DNA of 64,000 nt, from positions 294,742 to 358,741 of the forward strand of contig JBPOGI010000005.1 of the NCBI GenBank assembly GCA_051251855.1, read 5' to 3'. The translations under genes and the position numbers were made by a program. Position 1 is the first letter of the stretch; every line of letters begins with the position of its first letter. Below are positions 17,754 through 64,000 of the stretch, in pieces. The notes below the pieces were generated by a model. It had not been told where the DNA came from and made no database searches. It saw only the letters and a list, made by a program, of their open reading frames with translations. Source of the DNA: Roseibacillus sp. (GTDB taxonomy: Bacteria > Verrucomicrobiota > Verrucomicrobiia > Verrucomicrobiales > Akkermansiaceae).

Positions 17754-18113
17754 ATGGCAAAAGTTCAGATTTATCATTACCCAAATTGAGGGTCTTCGAA
17801 GAATGCCTTGGCGGTCGCCGAGGAGATGGGAGTGGAGCACGAGGTGATTCTTTATATCAAAACACCTCCGGGCCGTGAAGAGCTGGAGAAGATTGTGGCG
17901 GGCTTGGAGGATCCTGTGGAAGATTTGGTGCGGAAGGATTCCATGTTTAAGAAGAAGGAATACAATCCAGACGACTACGTCGGGAATCCGGAGGCGGTGG
18001 TGGAGATTTTACTGAAGCACAAGCAGCTCTTGCAGCGCCCTGTGATTGTGAAAGGAAAGAAGGCCATTATTGGGAGGCCGAAGGCGCGGATTGCGGAGTT
18101 TCTTGGGTCGTAG
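17754..18113 (+). CDS. ArsC (glutaredoxin-type arsenate reductase) family protein, probable selenoprotein (TGA at codon 12)
   Basis: MAKVQIYHYPN*GSSKNAL aligns in register with R773 ArsC MSNITIYHNPACGTSRNTL; conserved LVRK, LQRPVI, IGRP downstream. Confidence 0.88.
17806..17823 (+). promoter_or_regulatory. Bacterial SECIS-like hairpin (ArsC-like gene)
   Basis: CCTTGGC-GGTC-GCCGAGG; 23 nt lie between the TGA at 17787-17789 and the loop. Confidence 0.7.
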
Positions 18114-54685: not shown

Positions 54686-55654
54686 ATGGAGACACAAGGA
54701 ATCAATGTGCCAGAGGCTCGTAAGCGAGTCTTGGGGGAAGTGCATAAGGTCGTTATCGGGCAGGAAGAGCCACTCGACCTGATGTTGTTAGCGATGCTCT
54801 GCGGAGGTCATTGTCTATTGAAGGGAGTGCCGGGGGTGGGGAAAACGCTCATGGCCTCGACTTTGGCAAAGGTGCTCCAACTAGATTTCAATCGGGTTCA
54901 GTTTACGCCAGATATGATGCCTGCGGACATCACGGGTGGAGAAGTGTTGGAGGAAGATAATGGGAAGTGGAATCGTCGCTTTCTGCCGGGACCAGTTTTT
55001 ACAAACTTTCTCTTGGCTGATGAGATTAACCGAACACCTCCTAAGACCCAAGCCGCTCTTTTGCAGGCGATGCAAGAGCGACAGGTAAGTGTGGGCAATA
55101 CGACCTATCCCTTGGAGGAACCGTTTTTAGTAGTGGCGACTCAGAACCCAATTGAGATGGAAGGCACATACGCTTTGCCAGAAGCTCAGTTGGATCGATT
55201 TCTGTTCAATATTGAGGTGACCTATCCCACGGAGGAGGAGGAGCTTGGAATCGTGAAAGGGCAGACCGGAAACGAGGCGGGAGAGCCGGTTCCGGTTTTG
55301 GGGCCAGGCCAAATTATGGAACTTCGAAAGCAGGTGCGAGGGGTGCCGATGGCAGATGACGTCTCGCGTCTTGCGGTGAGACTGGCTGCTGCTACTCGAC
55401 CGGGAGGGAAGGAAACACCTGATATCGTGAATGAGTTCGTAGAAGTGGGCGCCAGCCCGCGAGCGAGTTTGACTCTGGCTTTGGGCGCGAAGGCGAAGGC
55501 GCTGGTGGCGGGCAAGACTCATGTCGATTTCGCAGATATAAAGTCGTTGGCGCTGCCGGTTTTGCGACATCGTCTGGTGATGAATTTTCGCAGTCGTGCC
55601 GAGAAGGTTTCGGTGGAGAAGGTGATTGAGGAAGTGGTGGCCTCTTTGAAGTAG
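54686..55654 (+). CDS. MoxR family AAA+ ATPase
   Basis: GVPGVGKT, RVQFTPDMMPAD, DEINRTPPKTQAALL, ATQNPIE, LPEAQLDRF, GASPR. Confidence 0.96.
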   Translation: METQGINVPEARKRVLGEVHKVVIGQEEPLDLMLLAMLCGGHCLLKGVPGVGKTLMASTLAKVLQLDFNRVQFTPDMMPADITGGEVLEEDNGKWNRRFLPGPVFTNFLLADEINRTPPKTQAALLQAMQERQVSVGNTTYPLEEPFLVVATQNPIEMEGTYALPEAQLDRFLFNIEVTYPTEEEELGIVKGQTGNEAGEPVPVLGPGQIMELRKQVRGVPMADDVSRLAVRLAAATRPGGKETPDIVNEFVEVGASPRASLTLALGAKAKALVAGKTHVDFADIKSLALPVLRHRLVMNFRSRAEKVSVEKVIEEVVASLK

Positions 55655-55657
55655 GGT

Positions 55658-56551
55658 ATGAGTTCTGCCACGTCAGCCTTGGATGATCCCGAGTTGTTTC
55701 TTGCTTTAGATGACCTCGAACTCGTCGCGCAAGGTCTTGCGGAGGGAGCTTGGCAAGGGACGAGGCGTAGCCGCATGCGGGGAGAGGGTATGGAGTTCGA
55801 GGGGCACCGAGAGTATCGGGTGGGAGATGATCCGCGCCACGTGAACTGGTCACTCTACGCGCGTTCACGCCGCTTGCAGACGCGCGAGTTTCGACCAGAG
55901 GTGAACTTGCCGCTCTACTTGATGTTAGACGTAACGGGCTCGATGACGGTGCAAAATGGAGCACGCAAGAAGCTGAAGTATGGGACCGCGATGGCTGCGG
56001 CGATGGCATATCTAGCTGGCAAAGCGCGTGATAGCCATGGGGTGATTTTGCTCGGAGATGGGGTCGTGGGAGGTTCTCGGATGGGGAGTGGTCAGAGGCA
56101 TTTTGATGAAGTGTCGGCCTTGCTCGCGGGGACGGATAGTTTTGGGGAAGGAGAGGTGGGGGAGGCTCTCGACCGAGCGCGAGAGATGTGTCGACGTCGA
56201 GGGATGGTAGTTTTGTTCTCGGACTTGTTTGATAAGGAAGAAGATATTCTGAAGGGGATAAGAGCGTTGAGAGCGGATGGTCATGAGGTCACTGTTTTTC
56301 AGGTGTTAGACCCTATCGAGATCGAGCTTCCCAAGAAGGGTGATATCGAGTTTGTGGATGCGGAAACAGGGAGGAAGATGAAGACGAGTGTCGCCGCGAT
56401 TCGTGAGAACTATGAGGCCGCGGTGAGGCTGTGGAGAGAAAACTTTCAGAGGGAATGTGAAGCAGTGGGTGCTATCTGGCAGAGTGCACGGACGGACGAA
56501 CCGATGGCGGATGCCCTTCGCGAGTGGATGCAAACAGCGATGCAAAAGTGA
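55658..56551 (+). CDS. DUF58 (vWA-like) protein
   Basis: GEGMEFEGHREYRVGDDPRHVNW, LDVTGSM, FSDL, LDPIE. Confidence 0.93.
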   Translation: MSSATSALDDPELFLALDDLELVAQGLAEGAWQGTRRSRMRGEGMEFEGHREYRVGDDPRHVNWSLYARSRRLQTREFRPEVNLPLYLMLDVTGSMTVQNGARKKLKYGTAMAAAMAYLAGKARDSHGVILLGDGVVGGSRMGSGQRHFDEVSALLAGTDSFGEGEVGEALDRAREMCRRRGMVVLFSDLFDKEEDILKGIRALRADGHEVTVFQVLDPIEIELPKKGDIEFVDAETGRKMKTSVAAIRENYEAAVRLWRENFQRECEAVGAIWQSARTDEPMADALREWMQTAMQK

Positions 56552-59500
56552 TGAGATGGAAGAGTCAGATTTGCTCGGGAGTGACCGCTTTGCTGATGCT
56601 GGTGGGCTTAGGGTTTTTGCTGCCAGATCTTCTTTCACAGGGGAATCGACCGGGAGAACCGGGAGAAAGCTCTCTATCTGAGGTTCCTCTGGCGGTTGCC
56701 GGTTCATTAGATTCCCCAGATTTCGAGCCCAAGGTGACCGAGATTGGAACCCCGCCGTCTCCTAGAGAAGTGGTTGAGGGAATGGAGGGGCCGGATGGGT
56801 TTCGAGTGGAGGTCTTCGCCAGTGAGCCGCAGGTCAGAGTCCCCATCGATATGACGGTGGATGATGCTGGTCGAGTTTGGGTGGCGGAATCCTACAGTTA
56901 CATGGACTGGCCGGTGGAAGGTTCTCGGACTGTTTTGGATTCTTTGGGGAGAGCCTTCCGCGAGGTAGTGCCTTTCGCTAGTGGAAAGGGCCATGATCGA
57001 GTCGTCGTGCTGACTGATAGTGATGGGGACGGAAAGGCTGAGGAGAGCCGGGTGGCAATTTCTGGGATCAAGCACCTCAGCAGCCTTGCAGTGGGCTGGG
57101 GGGGAGTGTGGGTTCTTGATTTACCCAATTTGCAATTCTATCCCGATCCTGATGGAGATGGAGTGATTGACTCTGCGCCCGTTACTAAGTTGAGCGGGTT
57201 CACCACGCGGGCAAAATGGAACATGCCTAATAGTCTGACTTGGGGGCCGGACGGGTGGCTTTATGGAACGTCAGGACAGATGGGGTGGTCAAGTGTGAGA
57301 GGTTTGAGGTGGTCCTGCGGAGTCTGGCGCTATCACCCCGCCGAGGACCGCTTCGAAGTGGTTGCCAATGGGATGACGAATCCTTGGGGTATCGATTGGA
57401 ACGCGGAGGGCGACTGCTTCGTGAGTGGGAATTGTAATGGGCACCTGTGGTCCATCCATCACGGGGGCTACTATGACCGGGGTTGGGGAGGGGCGGCGAT
57501 GCCGGTGGGATCGAAACGTTTTACTGCCATTGAAAAGGTGCCTCACTACCCGCCGGGGTTGGATTGGAAGACATCTTGGCAGCGACGATTTATAGTGGGG
57601 ACGGAAGCCGATGAATTTGGCGGTGGGCATTCTCATTGCGGGCTTTTGTTCTATCAAGGGGGGAGTTGGCCCGAGGAGTATGAGGGGCGCACTTTGATGG
57701 CCAATACTTTCGGCCGCAGGCTGAATGTGGACAAAGTGTCTTGGGAAGACGGTTATGTATCTGAGAGGCAGGGGGACTTGATGAAGGCGGGGACTGAGTG
57801 GTTTCGGGGAGTGAGTGTTGAGCAAGATGTCGACGGGAATGTTTTGGTGAGTGACTGGTGTGACAAAGGTGAGTGCCATGATGAGACGGGGGTGCATCGG
57901 GCTTCGGGACGGATTTACCGTCTTTGCTACGGAGAATCTAGTAAGAGAGAGGCCGTTGATTTACACCGAGAGACCGACTCAGAGTTGGTGAAGTTTTTGA
58001 CCCATGAGAATCATTACTATCGTCAGCGGGCGTCGCGCCTGTTGATGGAACGGCTGAGACGAAATGAGGTGGCTGAGGAAGTGCTTCAAGTTCTCGTCGA
58101 ATTGGTATCGGAGGGGAAGACATGGCAATCCCAATTGAGCAGTCTGCATACCCTGGCGGGCGGAGGGAAGTTGGCATTGGTGCTGGAGAAGGCACTGAAG
58201 GCTGAAGAGGGACGGATAAGGGCGGCTGCCGTTCGTCTCGGTGCTTCCGAAGAAATTGTGAGTGAGGTCTTTCTAAGCAAAGTGCGGGAAATGGTTTCCG
58301 GTGAGGATGATGAGAGGGTGCAGTGGCAACTGGCTTCAGCGATGAGGGTTTTGGCGAGTCAGGAGGAACTTGGGTTGAAGCTTTTGACAAAGATTGAGGG
58401 CGAGAATTTAACAAGAATGCTTTGGCAAACTATCGGCGGACCTGGTGAGCTCGGGGTCGCGGGGCTTTCGAAATTCTATCAAAAATCCCGCGCTCAGGTG
58501 GGTCGTTTGGAAGCTCTCAGTGGGTTGATTGATTATTCGGCGAGTGAAGAGTTGGCGAAGGTTCTGAAGGAGGTGCCGAGGTTAGAAGTTGCCGATGGGA
58601 ATGAGATATTGGAGGTCATCGCTGGAGCGGGAGAGCGCTGTGAGCCGGATCTGACTCTTGAGAGCTGGCGTTTACTTCGAAAGAAACTGGAGAACTGGGG
58701 CGATGAAAATACGATGTCGTCGCTCATTTCGTTGGGGCGAATTTTCAATGATACCGAGGCTTATGCAGAGGCTCGAAACTTGTTTCGAAATCGTGAGCTA
58801 CCGGTGGAAGATAGGGTGGAAGCGCTCAAGCAAATGCTTCTGGCTGATTCGAGTCGTGGTTTGGATGAGTTTTTGCAGGCGTGGAGAGAGCCTCATCTTC
58901 GTTTGAGTATCATTCCACTGTTGTCGGAAGTTTCGATAGGCTTTCACTATTTTGTGAGAGAATGGCATGAGCTGCCTCCTGCAGAGAAAGATGCCTTGGT
59001 CAAAGAGATGCTTAGGAGTGAGAGGGGGGCGAGTGAGTTGCTGATGTTCGTGAGATCGGATGTGATGTCTCCGGAGGTTTTGAACGGTGGAAATCTGGCC
59101 CTTCTTGAGACGGTGTCGCCTGAGCTTGCTGCTTCTTTTCGTGAGGACTATGGCGGAGATAATGCGGATAAACTGTGGCAGCGATGTTCGCAATTGGTGT
59201 TGGATGGCGAAGGTAGTGCTGAGGTTGGGCAAGAAGTCTACCAGCGGCTTTGCTCGAGCTGCCATCGATTCAAGGGAGGCAAAGGGGACTTGGGGCCTGA
59301 CTTGAGTGGATACGATTTTCGCGATGCGGAGTCGCTTCTCAAGAATATCATTTTTCCTTCCGCCTCGGTTGCTCCGGATGCGCGGTTGATGGTGGTGACG
59401 ATGAGGGATGGTACGGTAGTGACCGGAACGAGCTTGGGTGAGACGATCAATGGGGATGTGCGTATGAAGACTGCTCTGGGGGAGTCGGTGGTGACGAATC

Positions 59501-59619
59501 ATCGTTTGAGAAGCGTCGAGGTCTTTGAGAAGTCGCTGATGCCTGAGGGTTTGTTAGAGGGGCTTTCAGATGAGGAGGTCAAAGGGTTGATGAAATACTT
59601 ACAAGGAGGGAGCGAATGA
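56551..59619 (+). CDS. PVC-type heme-binding CxxCH protein (dehydrogenase-like propeller + HEAT repeats + cytochrome c)
   Basis: GFRVEVFASEP, WGPDGWLY, NPWG, DWCDKGECHD, CSSCH..GPDL, SLMPEGL; TGATG overlap with the DUF58 stop. Confidence 0.92.
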   Translation: MRWKSQICSGVTALLMLVGLGFLLPDLLSQGNRPGEPGESSLSEVPLAVAGSLDSPDFEPKVTEIGTPPSPREVVEGMEGPDGFRVEVFASEPQVRVPIDMTVDDAGRVWVAESYSYMDWPVEGSRTVLDSLGRAFREVVPFASGKGHDRVVVLTDSDGDGKAEESRVAISGIKHLSSLAVGWGGVWVLDLPNLQFYPDPDGDGVIDSAPVTKLSGFTTRAKWNMPNSLTWGPDGWLYGTSGQMGWSSVRGLRWSCGVWRYHPAEDRFEVVANGMTNPWGIDWNAEGDCFVSGNCNGHLWSIHHGGYYDRGWGGAAMPVGSKRFTAIEKVPHYPPGLDWKTSWQRRFIVGTEADEFGGGHSHCGLLFYQGGSWPEEYEGRTLMANTFGRRLNVDKVSWEDGYVSERQGDLMKAGTEWFRGVSVEQDVDGNVLVSDWCDKGECHDETGVHRASGRIYRLCYGESSKREAVDLHRETDSELVKFLTHENHYYRQRASRLLMERLRRNEVAEEVLQVLVELVSEGKTWQSQLSSLHTLAGGGKLALVLEKALKAEEGRIRAAAVRLGASEEIVSEVFLSKVREMVSGEDDERVQWQLASAMRVLASQEELGLKLLTKIEGENLTRMLWQTIGGPGELGVAGLSKFYQKSRAQVGRLEALSGLIDYSASEELAKVLKEVPRLEVADGNEILEVIAGAGERCEPDLTLESWRLLRKKLENWGDENTMSSLISLGRIFNDTEAYAEARNLFRNRELPVEDRVEALKQMLLADSSRGLDEFLQAWREPHLRLSIIPLLSEVSIGFHYFVREWHELPPAEKDALVKEMLRSERGASELLMFVRSDVMSPEVLNGGNLALLETVSPELAASFREDYGGDNADKLWQRCSQLVLDGEGSAEVGQEVYQRLCSSCHRFKGGKGDLGPDLSGYDFRDAESLLKNIIFPSASVAPDARLMVVTMRDGTVVTGTSLGETINGDVRMKTALGESVVTNHRLRSVEVFEKSLMPEGLLEGLSDEEVKGLMKYLQGGSE

Positions 59620-61532
59620 ACTTTGCGAGCATTCTCTTTCTAGCAGGTGGAGCGGCGGTTGTGATTCCATTACTGATCCACCTCATTCGTCGGCGACGTT
59701 GGGAGCAGGTTTCGATTGGTTCGCTGCGTTTTCTTCAGGAGGCTGCTCGGACGAGTCGACGCATGTCTCAAGTGGATAACTGGCCCTTGATGCTTTTGAG
59801 AATGCTGATGCTGCTTTTATTGGCTTTCGTTTTTGCGCGGCCTTATTTCAGTGAAAAAGAGAAGCGTGAGTCGGTCGATGGCGGGACGATTCTCGTCTTG
59901 CTCGATGCTTCTGGCAGCTTGGTCGAGAGCCGCGAAGAAGTTATCAAGCTTGCGGAACAGGCGACTCAGGGGAAAGAGGGGGTAGGAGTGCGATTGGTTG
60001 CCTTTGCGGATGAGGTCGAGGAGCTTTCTAAGGTTGATGATTATCGGGCGGTGGCTGGTTCGCCCACGGATTGGGAGGGTGTAGTGGAGTGGACGATCGA
60101 TGCCGTGGCCGCGGGGTCGGTGAGCGAGGTGGTGGTGGTCACGGATGGGCGAAATGGTGGGGTGGCGGATGAGCCACAGAGGCTTTGGCCAAGCTCTGTT
60201 GCGATTAATATTCAGCGCGTGCAGGCGAAGGGGGAGGCTAATGCGGCGGTGGGCGAGGTTGAGCTTTTGACAGAGTATCAGGGGCTGGAAACCGTCTTTG
60301 AGGCTCGGGTGGAGGTTGAAGGTGACTGGAGTGGCGAAGCGGTTTTGGAATTGGAGGATGGGCGGAGAGCAAGTGTAGTCGTCCCCGAGGGCGGGGGGCG
60401 GGTTGTTTTTGGGGTGGAGCCAGGAGAGTTGAGCGAGTCGGAGCGACTCTTGCGAGGCAAGGTGACCTTGAAAGGGCAAGAGGCGGATTCTTGGTCGGCG
60501 GATGATGTGAGATACTTTGCTTTGTTAGAAAGGGTGCGAAAGCGGATTTTGATTTTGGATGGCGACCCCGGGGCGACGCCCTTTACGAGCGAAGGGTATT
60601 ATCTCTCGCGAGCTTTACAGGCTTCGGGACGCGGGCCTGGTCAATCTGCTTTTGTGCCGGTGATTCAGAATGACTTTCGGTTGGCCGAGCCTCGGGAAGG
60701 TGAGGAACGTTGGGATGCCATTGTCCTCTGCAATTGGGCGCAAGTTGGGTCGTTTGAAGCTGAGGTTCTGGAGTCTTGGCGGGAACTGGGAACGGGGCTG
60801 GTTGTGGTCTTGGGTGATCAGTCTTCGGCTGCGGGGTATGCTTCTTTGACGGAGCGGGGGCTTTTTCCGAAAGGATTGGAACGGCAAGAAGTGGCGACTC
60901 CCAGGCCTTTGGAGTTGGGGGAGGAAGAGAGTTTGGCGATGAGAGGATTTTCTGAGGTGGGCTCTGGCCTGAATACACTCTTTTTACGGGATGGTTTTCG
61001 GTTCGGTGATTCTGGGAGCTGGATTGAGAGCGCCTCTTTACGAGGTGGAGGAGGTTTGCTTTTTGAGAAGGTCGAAGAAGGCAAGGGACTTGCGCTGGTG
61101 GTGGCTCATCCTTTGACGCGAGAGTGGGGTGATTTTCCGATTTCTCGTTGGTTTGTGCCGTTGGCAATGGAGTGGATGAAAGCGGCCACGGGCTGGAGAG
61201 AGTCAGGCGCACGAGTTCTCAATTCGGTGGTGGGGTTTTCAAGGCCCGAGCAGGGAATTTTTGACCAAGAAGGGCAAGTGGGAGTGGTGAACGCGGATGT
61301 GGAGGAGCGCAAGGTAGGGGTTTTGAGCGATAGTGAGCTTCGAGAGAGGCTGGGCGTTCCTTCGGAGGATGGTTCGCTAGAGCTGGCAAATACGCCGGTA
61401 TTGAGCGAACTTCCTGCCAGTCGTGAGCGCCCACATGAGATCTGGCCATGGCTTCTTTTTGTGCTCATACTACTCGGTGGGTATGAGCTTTGGTTCTCAG
61501 ACTTTCGCAAATTCAAACCTCAAAACATATGA
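59616..61532 (+). CDS. BatA-domain / vWA membrane protein
   Basis: PLLIHLIRRRR..SLRFL..LRML..ARPY; LDASGS; VTDG; C-terminal IWPWLL TM. Confidence 0.9.
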   Translation: MNFASILFLAGGAAVVIPLLIHLIRRRRWEQVSIGSLRFLQEAARTSRRMSQVDNWPLMLLRMLMLLLLAFVFARPYFSEKEKRESVDGGTILVLLDASGSLVESREEVIKLAEQATQGKEGVGVRLVAFADEVEELSKVDDYRAVAGSPTDWEGVVEWTIDAVAAGSVSEVVVVTDGRNGGVADEPQRLWPSSVAINIQRVQAKGEANAAVGEVELLTEYQGLETVFEARVEVEGDWSGEAVLELEDGRRASVVVPEGGGRVVFGVEPGELSESERLLRGKVTLKGQEADSWSADDVRYFALLERVRKRILILDGDPGATPFTSEGYYLSRALQASGRGPGQSAFVPVIQNDFRLAEPREGEERWDAIVLCNWAQVGSFEAEVLESWRELGTGLVVVLGDQSSAAGYASLTERGLFPKGLERQEVATPRPLELGEEESLAMRGFSEVGSGLNTLFLRDGFRFGDSGSWIESASLRGGGGLLFEKVEEGKGLALVVAHPLTREWGDFPISRWFVPLAMEWMKAATGWRESGARVLNSVVGFSRPEQGIFDQEGQVGVVNADVEERKVGVLSDSELRERLGVPSEDGSLELANTPVLSELPASRERPHEIWPWLLFVLILLGGYELWFSDFRKFKPQNI

Positions 61533-64000
61533 GCAACGCAAGACAACCCGCAAGTCAGTCGGGACAGGAGCCTTCTCGAATCCAAACGGTTCTGACCAAG
61601 ATGAGGCGACACTATTTGTGGGCGGGTCAACTTCGAGCCATTGTTACGGTTTTGATCTTAGCTGTTTTAGTCGCGTTGTTGGATGCTCTGCTTGGGTTAA
61701 GTAGTGGTGTCAGATGGCTTGCTTGGTTGGGTATCGCTCTTGCTGCAGCGTTGGTTATTTTTCGTTGGTGGAGACGCGGGAGAGCAGTTCAGGCCTCGGA
61801 TGTAGTTGCCGCGGTGGAGGAGTCTTCTCCTTCGGTGGGACAGTTGCCCCGAACAGCCCGTGATTTGCAGCTCAAGAAGTTGAGTCCTGACAGTGGCGTT
61901 TCTCCTGAGATGGCTGCGGATGTGATGAAGCGAGCGGGACGTTTTTGGGCTGGGGTGAAGCCAGAGGCGGCAGTGGATGTTTCGGTGACTCGTCGATGGC
62001 CGCTATTTGCGGGGTTGGCTGCTCTTGTGTTTGCCGCTTTGTTTGTGTCTTGGGGTGATTTTCGCACGGCGACGGCGCGACTGGTATGGCCTTCTTCTCA
62101 AAGGTCTTTTACTCGAATCGTGGATCAGACCGACAGGGATTCGTATCGGACAGAGCAGCCCTTTCGATTTCAGGTCGAAACTCGCGGGCGTGAGCCTGAG
62201 TTGGTCAGCATTTCTATCGTTACCGATTCTGGGGAGGAAAGTGAACAACGGTTGATTAAGAGTGAGGATGGGCGCTACGAGCTGTCTTGGACAACTCCGC
62301 CGGGAGGGTTTCGTTATCGTATTGAAGCTGGTGACGGCCAGTCGGAGAGTAAGTATGTGGAGTGCCTTGATGCGGCTCGTTTAGTCGAAAGTGAAGGGGT
62401 AGTTGTTCCTCCTGCATATGTGGGAGCGGAGGCTGAGGAGTTCGAAAGCGGCGATGTGGAAGGTTTGGAGGGTTCCTCGGTTGAGTTGGCGTTTGAGATG
62501 ACGGCTCCGATGGAGAGCGCGCGACTTACTTTTGATGATGGCGAAGTTGTAGAAGCTCTTTGCGAGGGAAATCGCGTGATCGTGCAGACCGAAATTGTGG
62601 CCGGAAAGCGAGTCTATGATTTGGTCGGTCTTGACCGGAAGGGGCATGAGTTGGAGCCAGTGAAGTTCTTGATGGATGGTAGGGCTGACAAGATGCCTGT
62701 GATTGAGATTGTGGAGCCCAAGAAAGAAGTGGCTTCCACTCCGGTGGGAGAGGTTCCCGTAAGAATCAGGGCTCGTGATGATGTCGGTTTGGGTGAGGTT
62801 GGTATTATCTTGGAAGCGCAGGGAGAGCAGCGAGAGCTTCTCAATTTGCCCATTTCGGAGGACGGCTCGATTGAAGTGAAGGAGTTGGCTCTGGCTGCAT
62901 TGGAGGAGTATTCGTTGAGCATTAATGATAATGTCCGTCTCTTTGCCTATGCGAAGGATAAGAAGCCAAGAGGCGAGGCTCGAGCTGTCAGTGAGATGCG
63001 GGCCATCGATATTCAACAATTTCAGACGCGATGGTATGCAAGCGATGGCCCTCCATGAGACTGCGTCGATTTATTGGATCAGTTGATCCAAATGGAACGT
63101 CGGATTGTTTCTCAGTCTTTTCAGGAGCGTGAGTTGTCTGTGAACAAGGAGCCCGAGTTGGCGGTGACGGTGAAGCTTGCCGAAAATCAGTCGGCAAACA
63201 TTGATACTGCTTTCGAGCTGAGGGAGAGTGCGGTGGCCAAGTTTACGGCGGATGATTTGGCATTGTTGGACATCAGTATCGAACAGATGAACGAGGCCAA
63301 CGGGGCTTTCGAGATGCCTGAGATTTCGGCGGGGTACTTGAACGCCGATGGCGCTCTGACGACTTTGTTAGAGCTTCGAAAGAAGGTGGAGAAGTATCTG
63401 AGTAAATCGAAAAAGCCTTCGCGGAAGGCGGGCGAAAGTGAGAAGCCCAAGGATATGAACGAGTTGGCTCGTGAGGCGGAGCGCTTAGCTGACGAGCAAG
63501 AGTCGTTAAGCGATGTCGTGGCCTCGGAATTGTTGGGCTCGGCTGAGAAGAGGCAGCAGGAAGTAGCGGTTGCCGATGCGGGGGAACTTTATAGTAAGTT
63601 AATGAACCATCCCGAAAAGACTGATGGCCTTGTGAGCCGGATGGGAAGCGCTGAGGACTTGATGATTGCTGCCGAACGGGCCATGCGCAAAGAATTGCTG
63701 GAGCCTAGTGAGGAAAGCCTCAACGAGTCTGAGACGGAGCTGCGTGAAGTGGCTAAGATGCTGAGAGCGTTGAATGAGGATAATCTCGAAGAGACCTTGG
63801 AGGAAATGGCCGAAGAAGCTGAGAAGGCTGCAGAAGCAGCCGGTGAGAAAGGGGAAGCTGAAGACGCTGAGGAAGAGGGCAAGGGTGAAAAGGGTGAGGA
63901 AGGCCAAGACGGACAAGGAGAGGAAGGCGAGGGTCAAGGCGAGGGTCAAGGCGAGGGTCAAGGCGAGGGTCAAGGCGAGGGTCAAGGCGAGGGTCAAGGC
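61529..64000 (+). CDS. Large DUF4175-like membrane protein with in-frame TGA at 63056-63058 (candidate Sec); 3' partial
   Basis: Three TMs, PPAY, DKMP.I.I..P, ARDDVGL, AYAKD; frame stays open 314 codons past the TGA (helical region, then GEGQ repeats). Confidence 0.8.
63074..63091 (+). promoter_or_regulatory. Bacterial SECIS-like hairpin (DUF4175-like gene)
   Basis: TTGGATC-AGTT-GATCCAA perfect stem; 22 nt lie between the TGA and the loop. Confidence 0.6.
63926..64000 (+). repeat. 12-bp coding tandem repeat GGCGAGGGTCAA (GEGQ)n
   Basis: Six perfect copies plus a partial one, truncated by the window end. Confidence 0.95.

What the first reader, a model, noticed from the sequence alone, without database searches (positions are those of the whole stretch)
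61529..64000. Candidate new selenoprotein: U-x-C motif inside a DUF4175-like membrane protein of a MoxR/vWA operon
Seen: the track ORF stops at TGA 63056-63058 (codon 510 from ATG 61529), but the same frame stays open for all 314 remaining codons. It reads ...RWYASDGPP*DCVDLLDQLIQMERRIVSQ... and ends in GEGQ repeats. A perfect hairpin TTGGATC-AGTT-GATCCAA follows, with its loop 22 nt after the TGA, nearly the same geometry as at the ArsC TGA in this window. The overlapping ATG at 63055 opens only a 25-codon frame. Known: bacterial SECIS elements lie just 3' of UGA with a G/GU in the apical loop; Sec often pairs with a nearby Cys; such operon-associated proteins are generally long single polypeptides. 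Inference: TGA encodes Sec, giving a UxC redox motif between the Ig-like and helical regions. I know of no selenoprotein family of this type.
Basis: partly seen in the sequence, partly recalled or inferred. Interest (0 to 1): 0.92.

Follow-up and report, generated by a model that had tools for sequence, protein, structure and literature searches.

The report
Selenocysteine codon in DUF4175-like membrane protein
An apparent stop codon inside a large membrane protein of a MoxR/Bat-type operon most likely encodes selenocysteine, and relatives in other bacteria carry the same recoded codon or a cysteine at that spot, which points to a selenoprotein family that appears not to have been described.

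Summary
TGA 63056-58 is codon 510 of an ORF that stays open to the window end, which is also the contig end. A 7-bp hairpin with an AGUU loop starts 15 nt after the TGA.

The selenocysteine (Sec) reading is supported:
- **Machinery:** the genome has SelA, SelB, SelD and tRNA-Sec. TGA is otherwise a normal stop.
- **Ortholog:** a same-genus genome (G003, 67% identity) keeps the TGA at the same codon. The halves stay in frame, changes after the TGA are synonymous, and two stem pairs changed compensatorily.
- **Sec use tracks the TGA:** G003 has SelA. It was not found in four family members whose homologs are uninterrupted.
- **Wider family:** of 80 metagenome loci of planctomycete-type DUF4175 homologs, 24 carry an in-frame TGA in the same linker (typically GG[ST]-U-x-G-C). 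All 12 distinct sequences of the main type have a perfect 7-bp hairpin that covaries. Several relatives have Cys at the aligned residue.
- **Pairwise alignment:** BLASTP aligns U with U and Cys with Cys (E 3e-41).

Caveats: no Cys homolog exists among verrucomicrobial relatives. The hairpin alone is not statistically unusual. There is no RNA or protein evidence.

I found the family in no selenoprotein list that I checked. The function, probably a redox hinge, is inferred.

The parts
54686..55654 (+). MoxR-type AAA+ ATPase, first gene of the operon
   Evidence: Pfam AAA_3 4.6e-61, AAA_lid_2, bpMoxR
55658..56551 (+). DUF58 / vWA-like protein
   Evidence: Pfam DUF58 1.6e-42, VWA_2
56524..59619 (+). 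PVC-type heme-binding CxxCH protein (1031 aa), inserted in the Bat-like operon
   Evidence: Pfam DUF7133 and Cytochrome_C. NCBIfam TIGR02604 1e-79 and TIGR02603 1.6e-23
59616..61532 (+). BatA-type protein with N-terminal double-transmembrane domain. Its stop overlaps the start of the next gene (ATGA)
   Evidence: Pfam BatA 8e-20. NCBIfam TIGR02226 1.1e-21. Coordinates
61529..64000 (+). DUF4175-like membrane protein gene, first 823 codons. It runs off the contig and continues at the start of contig C6 (293 more codons plus an unknown number of GEGQ repeats)
   Evidence: Translation. Contig end and C6 continuation. BLASTP E 3e-41 over 710 residues to a read-through DUF4175 member
61637..62059 (+). 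Region holding three hydrophobic segments (about residues 37-57, 62-80 and 157-177). By the positive-inside rule the rest of the protein would face the periplasm
   Evidence: Read from the translation. The topology is inferred; no predictor was run
62699..63013 (+). Last Ig-like beta-sandwich domain (residues 391-495)
   Evidence: AlphaFold2 with a 32-sequence alignment, mean pLDDT 85.2. Foldseek finds only Ig-like domains, e.g. 9kvu TM 0.71 normalised to the target
63056..63058 (+). In-frame TGA, codon 510, read as selenocysteine
   Evidence: The same codon is TGA in G003. It aligns with the TGA of planctomycete-type homologs
63062..63064 (+). Cys512 codon (TGC), partner of the U-x-C motif. 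It lies in the first turn of the helix that follows the linker
   Evidence: Conserved as TGT in G003. Aligned to the Cys of the U-x-G-C motif. Helix starts at residue 511 in the model
63074..63091 (+). SECIS-like hairpin: stem 63074-63080 / 63085-63091, loop AGUU 63081-63084
   Evidence: Two of 7 pairs changed on both sides in G003 (U-A to C-G, G-C to A-U). Same geometry as the ArsC, FdhA and Trx-like selenoprotein genes of this genome
63059..63136 (+). First long helix of the helical region that follows the linker
   Evidence: AlphaFold2 model: helix at residues 132-157 of the 320-residue piece
63896..64000 (+). GEGQ-type low-complexity repeat at which the assembly breaks (approximate start)
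   Evidence: Translation. The same repeat is at the start of C6

Best explanation
TGA 63056-58 is a selenocysteine codon.

**Recoding.** The hairpin 15 nt downstream (apical loop AGUU) acts as a bacterial SECIS. It recruits SelB with Sec-tRNA(Sec), so the ribosome makes one polypeptide of more than 1,100 residues.

**The product.** It has three N-terminal membrane segments, then Ig-like domains, then a short flexible linker. The linker ends in Sec510-Asp-Cys512 at the N-terminal cap of a long helical region. The protein ends in a YRRxVExYYRxLSDD tail.

**Family and context.** It belongs to the DUF4175 family and is the last large component of a MoxR-DUF58-BatA-type operon.

- Shown by comparison: the codon is read through and conserved.
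- Inferred: the residue inserted is Sec.
- Inferred from motif and position, about 0.35: Sec and the nearby Cys form a redox-active selenol/selenylsulfide or metal-binding centre. It would sit at the hinge between the beta-sandwich and helical halves, probably on the periplasmic side.
- Also expected: termination at UGA should give a 509-residue short form when Sec insertion fails.
For: **Machinery and code**
- SelA scores 376.5 bits. The SelB wing_3 domain scores 58.1 bits in a 754-codon frame. SelD scores 375.9 bits and has its own TGA.
- tRNA-Sec is the only tRNA with anticodon UCA among 50 tRNAs. TGA ends 364 of 1,595 open frames of at least 400 codons.

**Ortholog G003**
- It is 67% identical and has a TGA at the same codon. 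It is the only other hit with a stop among 25 matching genomes of 41 searched and 14 of 401.
- Third codon positions differ at 457 of 822 codons, so the codon has been kept through long divergence.
- A one-codon indel just upstream keeps the two halves in frame.
- In the 11 codons after the TGA there are 5 synonymous changes, 1 non-synonymous change and 0 second-position changes.
- The C-terminal half has 100 synonymous and 65 non-synonymous changes over 270 codons.
- Two stem pairs of the hairpin changed on both sides.
- SelA is present in G003. It was not found in G134, G102, G358 and G066 (89-98% complete), whose homologs have no stop.

**Same-genome comparison**
- Selenoprotein genes confirmed by Pfam (FdhA, two Trx-like, AhpC-like, ArsC, MiaB-like) have 6-7-bp hairpins. 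Their loops are GGUC, GGUCU, AGUUA or GGU, at similar distances from the TGA.

**Wider family**
- 14 of the 28 representatives I fetched end inside this linker.
- In 80 metagenome loci, 24 have an in-frame TGA in the linker, with 380-707 open codons after it in most. All 25 early stops are TGA; none is TAA or TAG.
- All 12 distinct U-x-G-C sequences have a perfect 7-bp stem 20 nt after the UGA. All 84 cells are paired and 2 pairs covary. None of 500 shuffles reaches this, and slid controls pair at 29-61%.
- In 21 non-TGA homologs that encode the same LEELI peptide, the best stems are only 3-5 bp.
- Cys sits at the exactly aligned position in L070, L074, L075 and L087. In L078 and L080 it is one residue off.
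- BLASTP of the window protein against the L064 read-through gives E 3e-41 and aligns U with U and Cys with Cys.
- L064 and P0161 hit Pfam DUF4175 at 58.6 and 50.1 bits.
- All four loci checked have a BatA-type gene upstream; DUF58 is seen in the two with enough flank, and vWA or GATase1-like downstream in three. On C6 a vWA/GATase1-like gene follows as well.

**Structure**
- The model places U at the last linker residue, just before the helix.
Against: - **No Sec/Cys pair within the phylum.** The nearest non-TGA relative (P0002, 74% identical in the region) and all other verrucomicrobial homologs aligned have neither Cys nor a stop there. The site lies in a length-variable linker of low model confidence.
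- **Scattered distribution.** On a quick tree the Sec label needs at least 6-7 changes. The window's clade is an isolated Sec case among 17 non-Sec rows.
- **Weak hairpin statistics.** The hairpin alone is not significant. Its covariation in this lineage rests on two sequences.
- **No RNA family match.** No Rfam family matched the region.
- **No expression evidence.** No RNA run holds the stretch, and there is no protein evidence.
- **One fragmented relative.** Its N-terminal half is in another frame than the TGA. This could be indel errors or decay.
- **Unchecked machinery.** Sec machinery could not be checked for the metagenome contigs.
- **Inferred join.** The join of contigs C9 and C6 is not spanned by a read.
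Confidence: 0.85

Rival explanations
1. Split gene. UGA510 is a true stop. The 509-residue membrane and Ig-like part and a separate helical protein (starting at ATG 63092 or another start) are made as two polypeptides, and the hairpin is incidental or regulatory.
For: - Gene callers split it this way in every database entry (P0003, P0014, P0172 and P0051).
- ATG 63092 is conserved in G003.
- The hairpin alone is not beyond chance.
- There is no Cys homolog among verrucomicrobial relatives.
Against: - The two halves are in the same frame in both species despite an indel just upstream.
- The 11 codons between TGA and ATG 63092 evolve as coding sequence (5 synonymous, 1 non-synonymous, 0 second-position changes).
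- TTG 63074 is CTG in G003.
- Uninterrupted homologs are single polypeptides of 1,000-1,300 residues.
- All 25 early stops at this site in 80 metagenome loci are TGA and in frame.
- A separately made C-terminal half has no signal peptide or membrane segment, whereas in fused homologs it follows the exported part.
- TGA forms go with SelA.
Confidence: 0.06
2. Read-through without Sec, or mainly termination. UGA is decoded at a low level by a near-cognate tRNA (Trp or Cys), or it serves chiefly as a programmed stop that yields the short form. The conserved hairpin would tune termination.
For: - Bacterial Sec insertion competes with release factor 2 (established knowledge), so a 509-residue product is expected in any case.
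- The site is not a catalytic residue shared across the family.
Against: - The full Sec machinery is present and used by at least six other genes with the same hairpin type.
- No suppressor tRNA other than tRNA-Sec was found.
- Cys replaces the TGA in related sequences, with a Cys two or three residues downstream in Sec forms. This pattern fits Sec chemistry rather than a mere stop.
- TGA forms occur where SelA is present.
Confidence: 0.06
3. Nonsense mutation or sequencing error in a decaying gene.
For: One related contig shows the gene in pieces.
Against: - The same base is found in an independent metagenome study, and at depth 28 in a run that may be the source.
- The TGA is kept in G003 at 56% third-position divergence, with purifying selection on both halves.
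- Five near-identical G003-like database entries all end at the same residue.
Confidence: 0.01

Closest known systems
DUF4175 family (Pfam PF13779), large membrane proteins of PVC bacteria
   Same: - The architecture matches: N-terminal membrane segments with an E..P..GQ..RTA motif, Ig-like domains, an ..IDI[RQ].F.. motif, a linker, an L[ED][EQ]LI..[QE]R helix, a long helical or low-complexity region, and a C-terminal Y[RK]xxVExYYRxLS[ED]D tail.
- BLASTP gives E 3e-41 to a member that scores 58.6 bits on PF13779.
- The operon context is the same.
   Different: - The window's protein does not itself reach any Pfam or NCBIfam model at E up to 0.01.
- The family is not annotated as a selenoprotein. 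NCBI and IMG entries are truncated at the TGA and named 'DUF4175 family protein' or 'hypothetical protein'.
Bacteroides aerotolerance (Bat) / MoxR-vWA operons
   Same: MoxR AAA_3, DUF58, a BatA N-terminal double-membrane-anchor protein and vWA proteins lie in one cluster.
   Different: - No selenoprotein component was found in print in my searches.
- This cluster also holds a PVC-type heme-binding protein and, on C6, an HtrA-like protease.
- The role of Bat proteins in oxidative stress is unsettled. Deleting all bat genes in Leptospira biflexa gave no oxidative-stress phenotype (PMC3557215, abstract read).
Bacterial selenoprotein genes with an intragenic SECIS (for example fdhF/FdhA and Trx-like UxxC proteins)
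   Same: An in-frame UGA is followed within about 20 nt by a stem-loop with G and U in the apical loop. A Cys lies 2-3 residues from Sec. The gene occurs with selA, selB, selC and selD.
   Different: - Sec lies in a flexible hinge of a large, apparently non-enzymatic envelope protein, not in a thioredoxin-fold or molybdopterin active site.
- About half of the 63 family members scored have neither Sec nor Cys there (32 of 80 loci).
- The spacing is U-x-C here and U-x-x-C in the planctomycete type.
Envelope selenoproteins predicted by others (MtrB/PioB outer-membrane barrel, TonB-dependent receptor)
   Same: These are large envelope proteins predicted to hold Sec outside a classical redox fold. 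They are listed in Table 1 of PMC9312934 (read in full) and in passages of PMC12013277.
   Different: They are unrelated families. I made no sequence comparison with them.

Membership tests
Bacterial selenoprotein gene (SelB/SECIS-dependent UGA recoding) | In-frame UGA conserved in orthologs, with coding sequence continuing in the same frame | tested here: met
   G003 has TGA at the same codon. Both halves are under purifying selection and in frame. 24 of 80 family loci have a TGA in the same linker.
Bacterial selenoprotein gene (SelB/SECIS-dependent UGA recoding) | Stem-loop just 3' of the UGA with G (and U) in the apical loop. The criteria are recalled from the bSECISearch literature and come from no call | tested here: met
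   7-bp stem with an AGUU loop 22 nt after the UGA. Two compensatory pair changes in G003. The planctomycete-type hairpin covaries and is absent from non-TGA homologs. The hairpin alone is not beyond chance. bSECISearch itself was not run.
Bacterial selenoprotein gene (SelB/SECIS-dependent UGA recoding) | selA, selB, selC and selD in the genome | tested here: met
   and 34. SelA is also in G003. It was not found in four genomes with uninterrupted homologs.
Bacterial selenoprotein gene (SelB/SECIS-dependent UGA recoding) | Cys at the aligned position in homologs | tested here: inconclusive
   Met in the planctomycete-type branch: L070, L074, L075 and L087 exactly, L078 and L080 one residue off. 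Not met among the verrucomicrobial homologs aligned, which have Ala, Pro, Ser and the like.
Bacterial selenoprotein gene (SelB/SECIS-dependent UGA recoding) | Selenium shown in the protein (75Se labelling or mass spectrometry) | not testable with these tools
   No proteomic data. No RNA run holds the stretch.
DUF4175 (PF13779) | Score above Pfam's gathering threshold (27.3 bits) | tested here: not met
   No PF13779 hit for the 823-residue product at E up to 0.01 or for the C6 part. The verrucomicrobial homologs P0011 and P0006 also give none.
DUF4175 (PF13779) | Homology and shared architecture with family members | tested here: met
   BLASTP E 3e-41 over 710 residues to the L064 read-through, which scores 58.6 bits on PF13779. 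The same C-terminal tail. phmmer hits to proteins that NCBI names DUF4175.
Bat / MoxR-vWA operon | MoxR AAA+ ATPase, DUF58 and BatA/vWA membrane proteins in one cluster | tested here: met
   vWA/GATase1-like lies downstream on C6, provided C9 and C6 adjoin.

The most novel reading that the evidence does not exclude
The hinge of DUF4175 proteins may be a selenium- and redox-gated switch of the enigmatic Bat/MoxR-vWA envelope machinery. The idea has three parts:
- A selenol/selenylsulfide (or metal-binding) pair at the N-cap of the helical half controls the geometry or partner binding of the complex.
- It has been gained or lost repeatedly, and appears in two PVC phyla at the same spot.
- The UGA doubles as a selenium-dependent choice between a 509-residue short form and the full-length protein.
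Probability: 0.25. Interest if true: 0.85.

Novelty: new member of a known kind. Interest (0 to 1): 0.72.

Why it matters
- **Annotation.** Public annotation cuts these genes in two at the TGA. Half of a protein of more than 1,000 residues is mislabelled in Roseibacillus-type Verrucomicrobia and in many planctomycete-type genomes and metagenomes.
- **A new selenoprotein family.** Recognising DUF4175 as a Sec/Cys family adds a large, envelope-anchored, apparently non-enzymatic protein to the bacterial selenoproteome.
- **A handle on Bat/MoxR-vWA operons.** Their function has stayed open since they were named for aerotolerance. The finding marks one reactive residue to mutate, label or trap.
- **A case study in Sec evolution.** The scattered U, C and neither pattern at one hinge position shows repeated gain and loss of Sec.

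Tried and rejected
- **First metagenome scan.** The scan with the G000/G003 alignment found 598 pattern matches but no relative. The genome-contig scan returned only G003's own contig.
- **Rfam.** Only two chance-level matches to unrelated families in 62800-63400, and no SECIS family.
- **Genome-wide screens for TGA candidates.** The overlap filter threw out the true positives, including this gene and FdhA. The codon-usage score was too strict: 6 hits, none of them the known selenoprotein genes. I gave up on a genome-wide selenoproteome and used hand-checked examples.
- **Expression.** No RNA holder was listed for the stretch. Contigs of X6 and X10 do not cover the TGA.
- **Structure.** The single-sequence AlphaFold2 model was poor (pLDDT 44.4) and was replaced by the model built on an alignment. 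Foldseek against the PDB gave only generic Ig-like matches and nothing for the helical half.
- **Family models.** NCBIfam holds no model for the family.
- **Code reassignment (TGA as Trp or Gly).** Rejected: TGA is a common stop here and there is no tRNA-Trp with anticodon UCA.
- **Tree.** The careful tree search did not finish, so the quick tree is what I report.

Full report
**1. The observation**

- TGA 63056-58 is codon 510 of the ORF that starts at ATG 61529.
- The frame then stays open for 314 codons, up to base 64000.
- The peptide reads ...RWYASDGPP-U-DCVDLLDQLIQMERRIVSQ... and ends in GEGQ repeats.
- TTGGATC-AGTT-GATCCAA (63074-63091) is a perfect 7-bp hairpin. Its loop starts 22 nt after the TGA.
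- The ATG at 63055 opens a frame of only 25 codons.

The window end is also the end of contig C9. Contig C6 begins with the same repeat in frame and carries 293 further codons. They end ...YRRAVEDYYRALSDDE-TAA. An HtrA-like protease and a vWA/GATase1-like gene follow on C6. The join of C9 and C6 is inferred; no read spans it.

The hairpin on its own is weak evidence.
- Its fold z-score is -1.82, and 10 of 200 shuffles fold as well.
- Of the 918 TGAs in this genome with at least 100 open codons on both sides, 3 have such a hairpin, where about 2.3 are expected.

The TGA is not an assembly artefact. A contig of an independent marine metagenome study covers 63028-63261 without a difference, at depth 2. 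A run that may be the source covers the stretch at depth 28.

**2. The genome uses selenocysteine, and TGA is otherwise a stop**

- SelA, SelB and SelD are present, and SelD has its own in-frame TGA. There is one tRNA-Sec.
- tRNA-Sec is the only tRNA with anticodon UCA among the 50 found. Both tRNA-Trp genes have CCA.
- TGA ends 364 of 1,595 open frames of at least 400 codons. This includes three neighbouring genes of the operon.
- Other genes of this genome have an in-frame TGA at the classical Sec site and a Pfam assignment: FdhA, two thioredoxin-like proteins (U-P-P-C), an AhpC-like protein, an ArsC-family protein (in this window, TGA 17787) and a MiaB-like protein.
- Their hairpins have 6-7-bp stems and loops GGUC, GGUCU, AGUUA or GGU, roughly 18-26 nt after the UGA. 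The hairpin studied here (7 bp, AGUU, 22 nt) is of the same kind.

**3. The close ortholog**

Among 41 related genomes, 25 had a match. Only G000 and the same-genus G003 (67% identity) had a stop inside the match, one TGA each. A wider sample of the family gave the same two among 14 matching genomes of 401. A sample of the phylum gave only G000 among 5 matching genomes of 401.

In G003 the TGA is at the aligned codon...RWYQQEAGEP-U-DCVDLLNQLIQMERRIVS. The record title of G003's contig names an uncultured Roseibacillus species.

The two genes are far apart at silent sites. Third codon positions differ at 457 of 822 codons. Even so (unless noted):
- the TGA is kept;
- a one-codon indel just upstream leaves the halves in frame;
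- the 11 codons between the TGA and the next ATG carry 5 synonymous changes, 1 non-synonymous change and no second-position change;
- the downstream half evolves as coding sequence, with 100 synonymous and 65 non-synonymous changes in 270 codons;
- the candidate start TTG 63074 is CTG in G003.

The hairpin in G003 is CUGAAUC-AGUU-GAUUCAG. Two of its seven pairs changed on both sides and stayed paired.

SelA is present in G003. It was not found in G134, G102, G358 and G066 (89-98% complete), whose homologs are uninterrupted.

**4. What the verrucomicrobial relatives have at the site**

Full-length homologs of 1,000-1,300 residues have no stop and no Cys at the positions of U510 and C512. These homologs are:
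- eight database proteins at 35-40% identity;
- nine family genomes at 39-47% identity that entered the alignment;
- P0002, the nearest non-TGA relative, at 74% identity in the region.

The site lies in a length-variable, Gly/Pro-rich linker between the motifs ..IDIxQF..RW and ..QRxIVS. The classical Sec/Cys pair is therefore absent within this phylum. This is the main point against the Sec reading.

**5. The wider family**

A full HMMER search with the 320-residue piece spanning the TGA found 322 proteins at E up to 0.001. I fetched 28 of the 150 listed. Fourteen of them are ORFs of 500-570 residues that end inside the same linker, typically ...IDIRPFKxxYQLxxxGGT. These truncations are not contig ends: the contigs behind them reach up to 40 kb. 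NCBI names two of the clusters 'DUF4175 family protein' of Pirellulales and Gemmataceae MAGs.

An alignment of nine of these truncated proteins retrieved 80 metagenome loci. In them:
- 24 have an in-frame TGA in the linker. In 17 a Cys follows: GG[ST]-U-x-G-C-S-T-T-LEELIARQR, or U-PPGEGR-C. In 7 there is Sec only. Two loci have two TGAs eight codons apart.
- After the TGA the frame is open for 380-707 codons in most of them.
- 7 have Cys only. In L070, L074, L075 and L087 it sits exactly at the Sec position (GGT-C-NG-S-SVT-LEELI). In L078 and L080 it is one residue off.
- 32 have neither Sec nor Cys.
- 10 did not match my anchor pattern. One of these has a TGA but unrelated sequence after it.
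- 7 lacked the upstream motif.

All 25 stops within 40 codons of the motif are TGA. The ordinary gene ends are 23 TGA, 9 TAG and 6 TAA. This comparison is not corrected for relatedness.

The hairpin is well supported in this branch.
- All 12 distinct sequences of the U-x-G-C type carry a perfect 7-bp stem, CAACUCU-GGA-AGAGUUG, 20 nt after the UGA. Two pairs covary (C-G to U-A and A-U to G-C, in L063 and L064).
- All 84 cells are paired. No shuffle of 500 reaches the observed pairing or covariation score. Slid controls pair at 29-61%.
- The hairpin is tied to the TGA and not to the peptide. In 21 distinct non-TGA homologs that encode the same LEELI peptide, the best stems are only 3-5 bp.
- The second Sec type embeds a 4-bp CUCU-GGA-AGAG tip in a longer helix.

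The read-through product of L064 has 1,093 residues. It hits Pfam DUF4175 at 58.6 bits and ends ...YRKLVEEYYRVLSEDLR, like the C6 part of the window's gene. BLASTP of the window protein against it gives E 3e-41 over 710 residues. It aligns U510 with its Sec and C512 with its Cys, with a one-residue gap.

Gene order is shared. All four loci checked have a BatA-type gene upstream. DUF58 is seen in the two with enough flank, and a vWA or GATase1-like gene lies downstream in three.

**6. Evolution**

I built a quick maximum-likelihood tree of 78 rows. I had dropped rows with other stops, rows shorter than 250 residues, duplicates, and rows with a TGA outside the linker. The careful search did not finish.
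- The tree separates a verrucomicrobial clade (17 rows with neither, plus G000 and G003 as sisters of G134) from the metagenome clade.
- Within the metagenome clade, Sec and Cys forms interleave.
- The Sec label needs at least 6-7 changes.

Sec at this hinge has therefore been gained or lost repeatedly. The window's lineage is either an independent gain or a lone survivor. The tree is unrooted for this purpose and cannot decide between the two.

**7. Anatomy and likely mechanism**

The operon reads:
- MoxR AAA_3 (54686-55654)
- DUF58 (55658-56551)
- PVC-type heme-binding CxxCH protein (56524-59619)
- BatA-type double-anchor protein (59616-61532)
- this gene (61529 onward)

Overlapping stops and starts suggest coupled translation.

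The protein has three hydrophobic segments near the N-terminus. By the positive-inside rule the remainder would be periplasmic. This is an inference; no topology predictor was run.

An AlphaFold2 model of residues 380-699, built on 32 sequences, has mean pLDDT 85.2.
- It shows an Ig-like sandwich at residues 391-495. Foldseek finds only generic Ig-like folds for it.
- A low-confidence linker follows.
- Sec510 is the last linker residue, directly before a long helix. Cys512 lies in the first turn of that helix.

A nucleophile at a helix N-cap with a partner thiol two or three residues on is the arrangement of redox-active CxxC and UxxC motifs (established knowledge of thioredoxin-fold proteins). 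I therefore commit to a selenol/selenylsulfide or metal-binding centre at the hinge, at about 0.35.

- Shown: the UGA is conserved and read in frame.
- Inferred with high confidence: the residue is Sec, inserted through the hairpin by SelB.
- Inferred with low confidence: what Sec does there.
- Also expected: a 509-residue short form whenever release factor 2 wins the competition at the UGA.

**8. Results against, and open points**

- There is no Cys homolog in the phylum.
- The hairpin alone is not significant, and in this lineage its covariation rests on two sequences.
- There is no Rfam match.
- There is no RNA or protein evidence.
- One related ENA contig carries the gene in several pieces, with the N-terminal half in another frame than the TGA (P0015 and P0051). 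This could be indel errors or decay.
- Sec machinery in the metagenome organisms is unknown.
- The window's protein is below Pfam's DUF4175 threshold.

**9. Is it known?**

- 'DUF4175' occurs in four papers of the library, none about selenium (search listing).
- Table 1 of the 2022 review of prokaryotic selenoproteins (PMC9312934, section read in full) lists 87 families without it. Three 'hypothetical protein GOS' entries carry no domain and could not be compared.
- The passages I saw of deep-Sep 2025 (PMC12013277) list nine new families, none of this kind.
- Table S9 of PMC4807772 (read) lists one unnamed 'hypothetical' planctomycete candidate with a Cys homolog in Rhodopirellula. This could be the same family; I could not check.
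- Searches for selenocysteine with BatA or aerotolerance, and for selenoprotein with MoxR, found nothing relevant.
- NCBIfam has no model for the family.

I conclude that this is a selenoprotein family not described in the sources I could search. It works by the known bacterial Sec mechanism.

**10. Verdict**

- Observation: confirmed.
- Interpretation: supported, and wider than proposed.
- Confidence in Sec recoding: 0.85.
- Novelty: new member of a known kind.
- Interest: 0.72.

Noticed in passing
window 17754-18113 (+), TGA at 17787-17789: ArsC-family ORF (Pfam ArsC 3.2e-15) with an in-frame TGA at the catalytic position (YHYPN-U-GSS). A CCUUGGC-GGUC-GCCGAGG hairpin lies 23 nt after it. ArsC-type selenoproteins are listed in the 2022 review, so this is a known kind.
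   Followed up: partly
window 56524-59619 (+): A 1031-residue PVC-type heme-binding CxxCH protein (TIGR02604/TIGR02603) sits inside the MoxR-DUF58-BatA cluster, between DUF58 and the BatA-type gene. The four planctomycete-type loci I checked do not show it there.
   Followed up: partly
G000:C6:415249-417774 (L055), TGA at C6:417091: FG-GAP / ASPIC-UnbV protein with an in-frame TGA (GGDDL-U-SVYWRGAVC) and a CGGUGCA-GUU-UGCACCG hairpin. The same domain combination is listed as a candidate selenoprotein in Table S9 of PMC4807772.
   Followed up: partly
G000:C11:190578-192050 (L052, - strand), TGA at C11:191993: MiaB-like methylthiotransferase (UPF0004, Radical_SAM, TRAM) with TGA in place of the first Cys of the UPF0004 domain (YG-U-QMN), followed by a hairpin.
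   Followed up: partly
G000:C6:711740-712339 (L054): Small ORF with an N-terminal hydrophobic leader and no Pfam hit. It holds two in-frame TGAs (SGGG-U-GAAGK and SGAT-U-AIKNE), each followed by a 6-bp hairpin. It may be a two-Sec protein.
   Followed up: no
G000:C7:93121-94050 (L058): SelD (TIGR00476, 375.9 bits) itself contains one in-frame TGA, so it is a Sec-containing SelD.
   Followed up: no
L092:5040-5093 and L099:3494-3547: Two metagenome DUF4175 homologs have two in-frame TGAs eight codons apart in the linker (GGT-U-RGRGDGL-U-[IL][SA]LEELI).
   Followed up: no
proteins P0015 and P0051 (one ENA contig of 24,379 bases by the listing): A close relative (79-89% identity) has the gene cut into several short ORFs. 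Its N-terminal half runs in a different frame across the TGA site. This could be indel errors or a decaying copy. The DNA could not be fetched.
   Followed up: partly
window 63896-64000 and G000:C6:1-200: The assembly breaks inside a GEGQ/GQGE repeat, so the repeat number and true length of the protein are unknown. G003's contig also ends in a GEQ/GQQ repeat.
   Followed up: partly
G000:C6:303622 (- strand): This is the third TGA in the genome with at least 100 open codons on both sides and a perfect 7-bp hairpin. I did not examine it.
   Followed up: no
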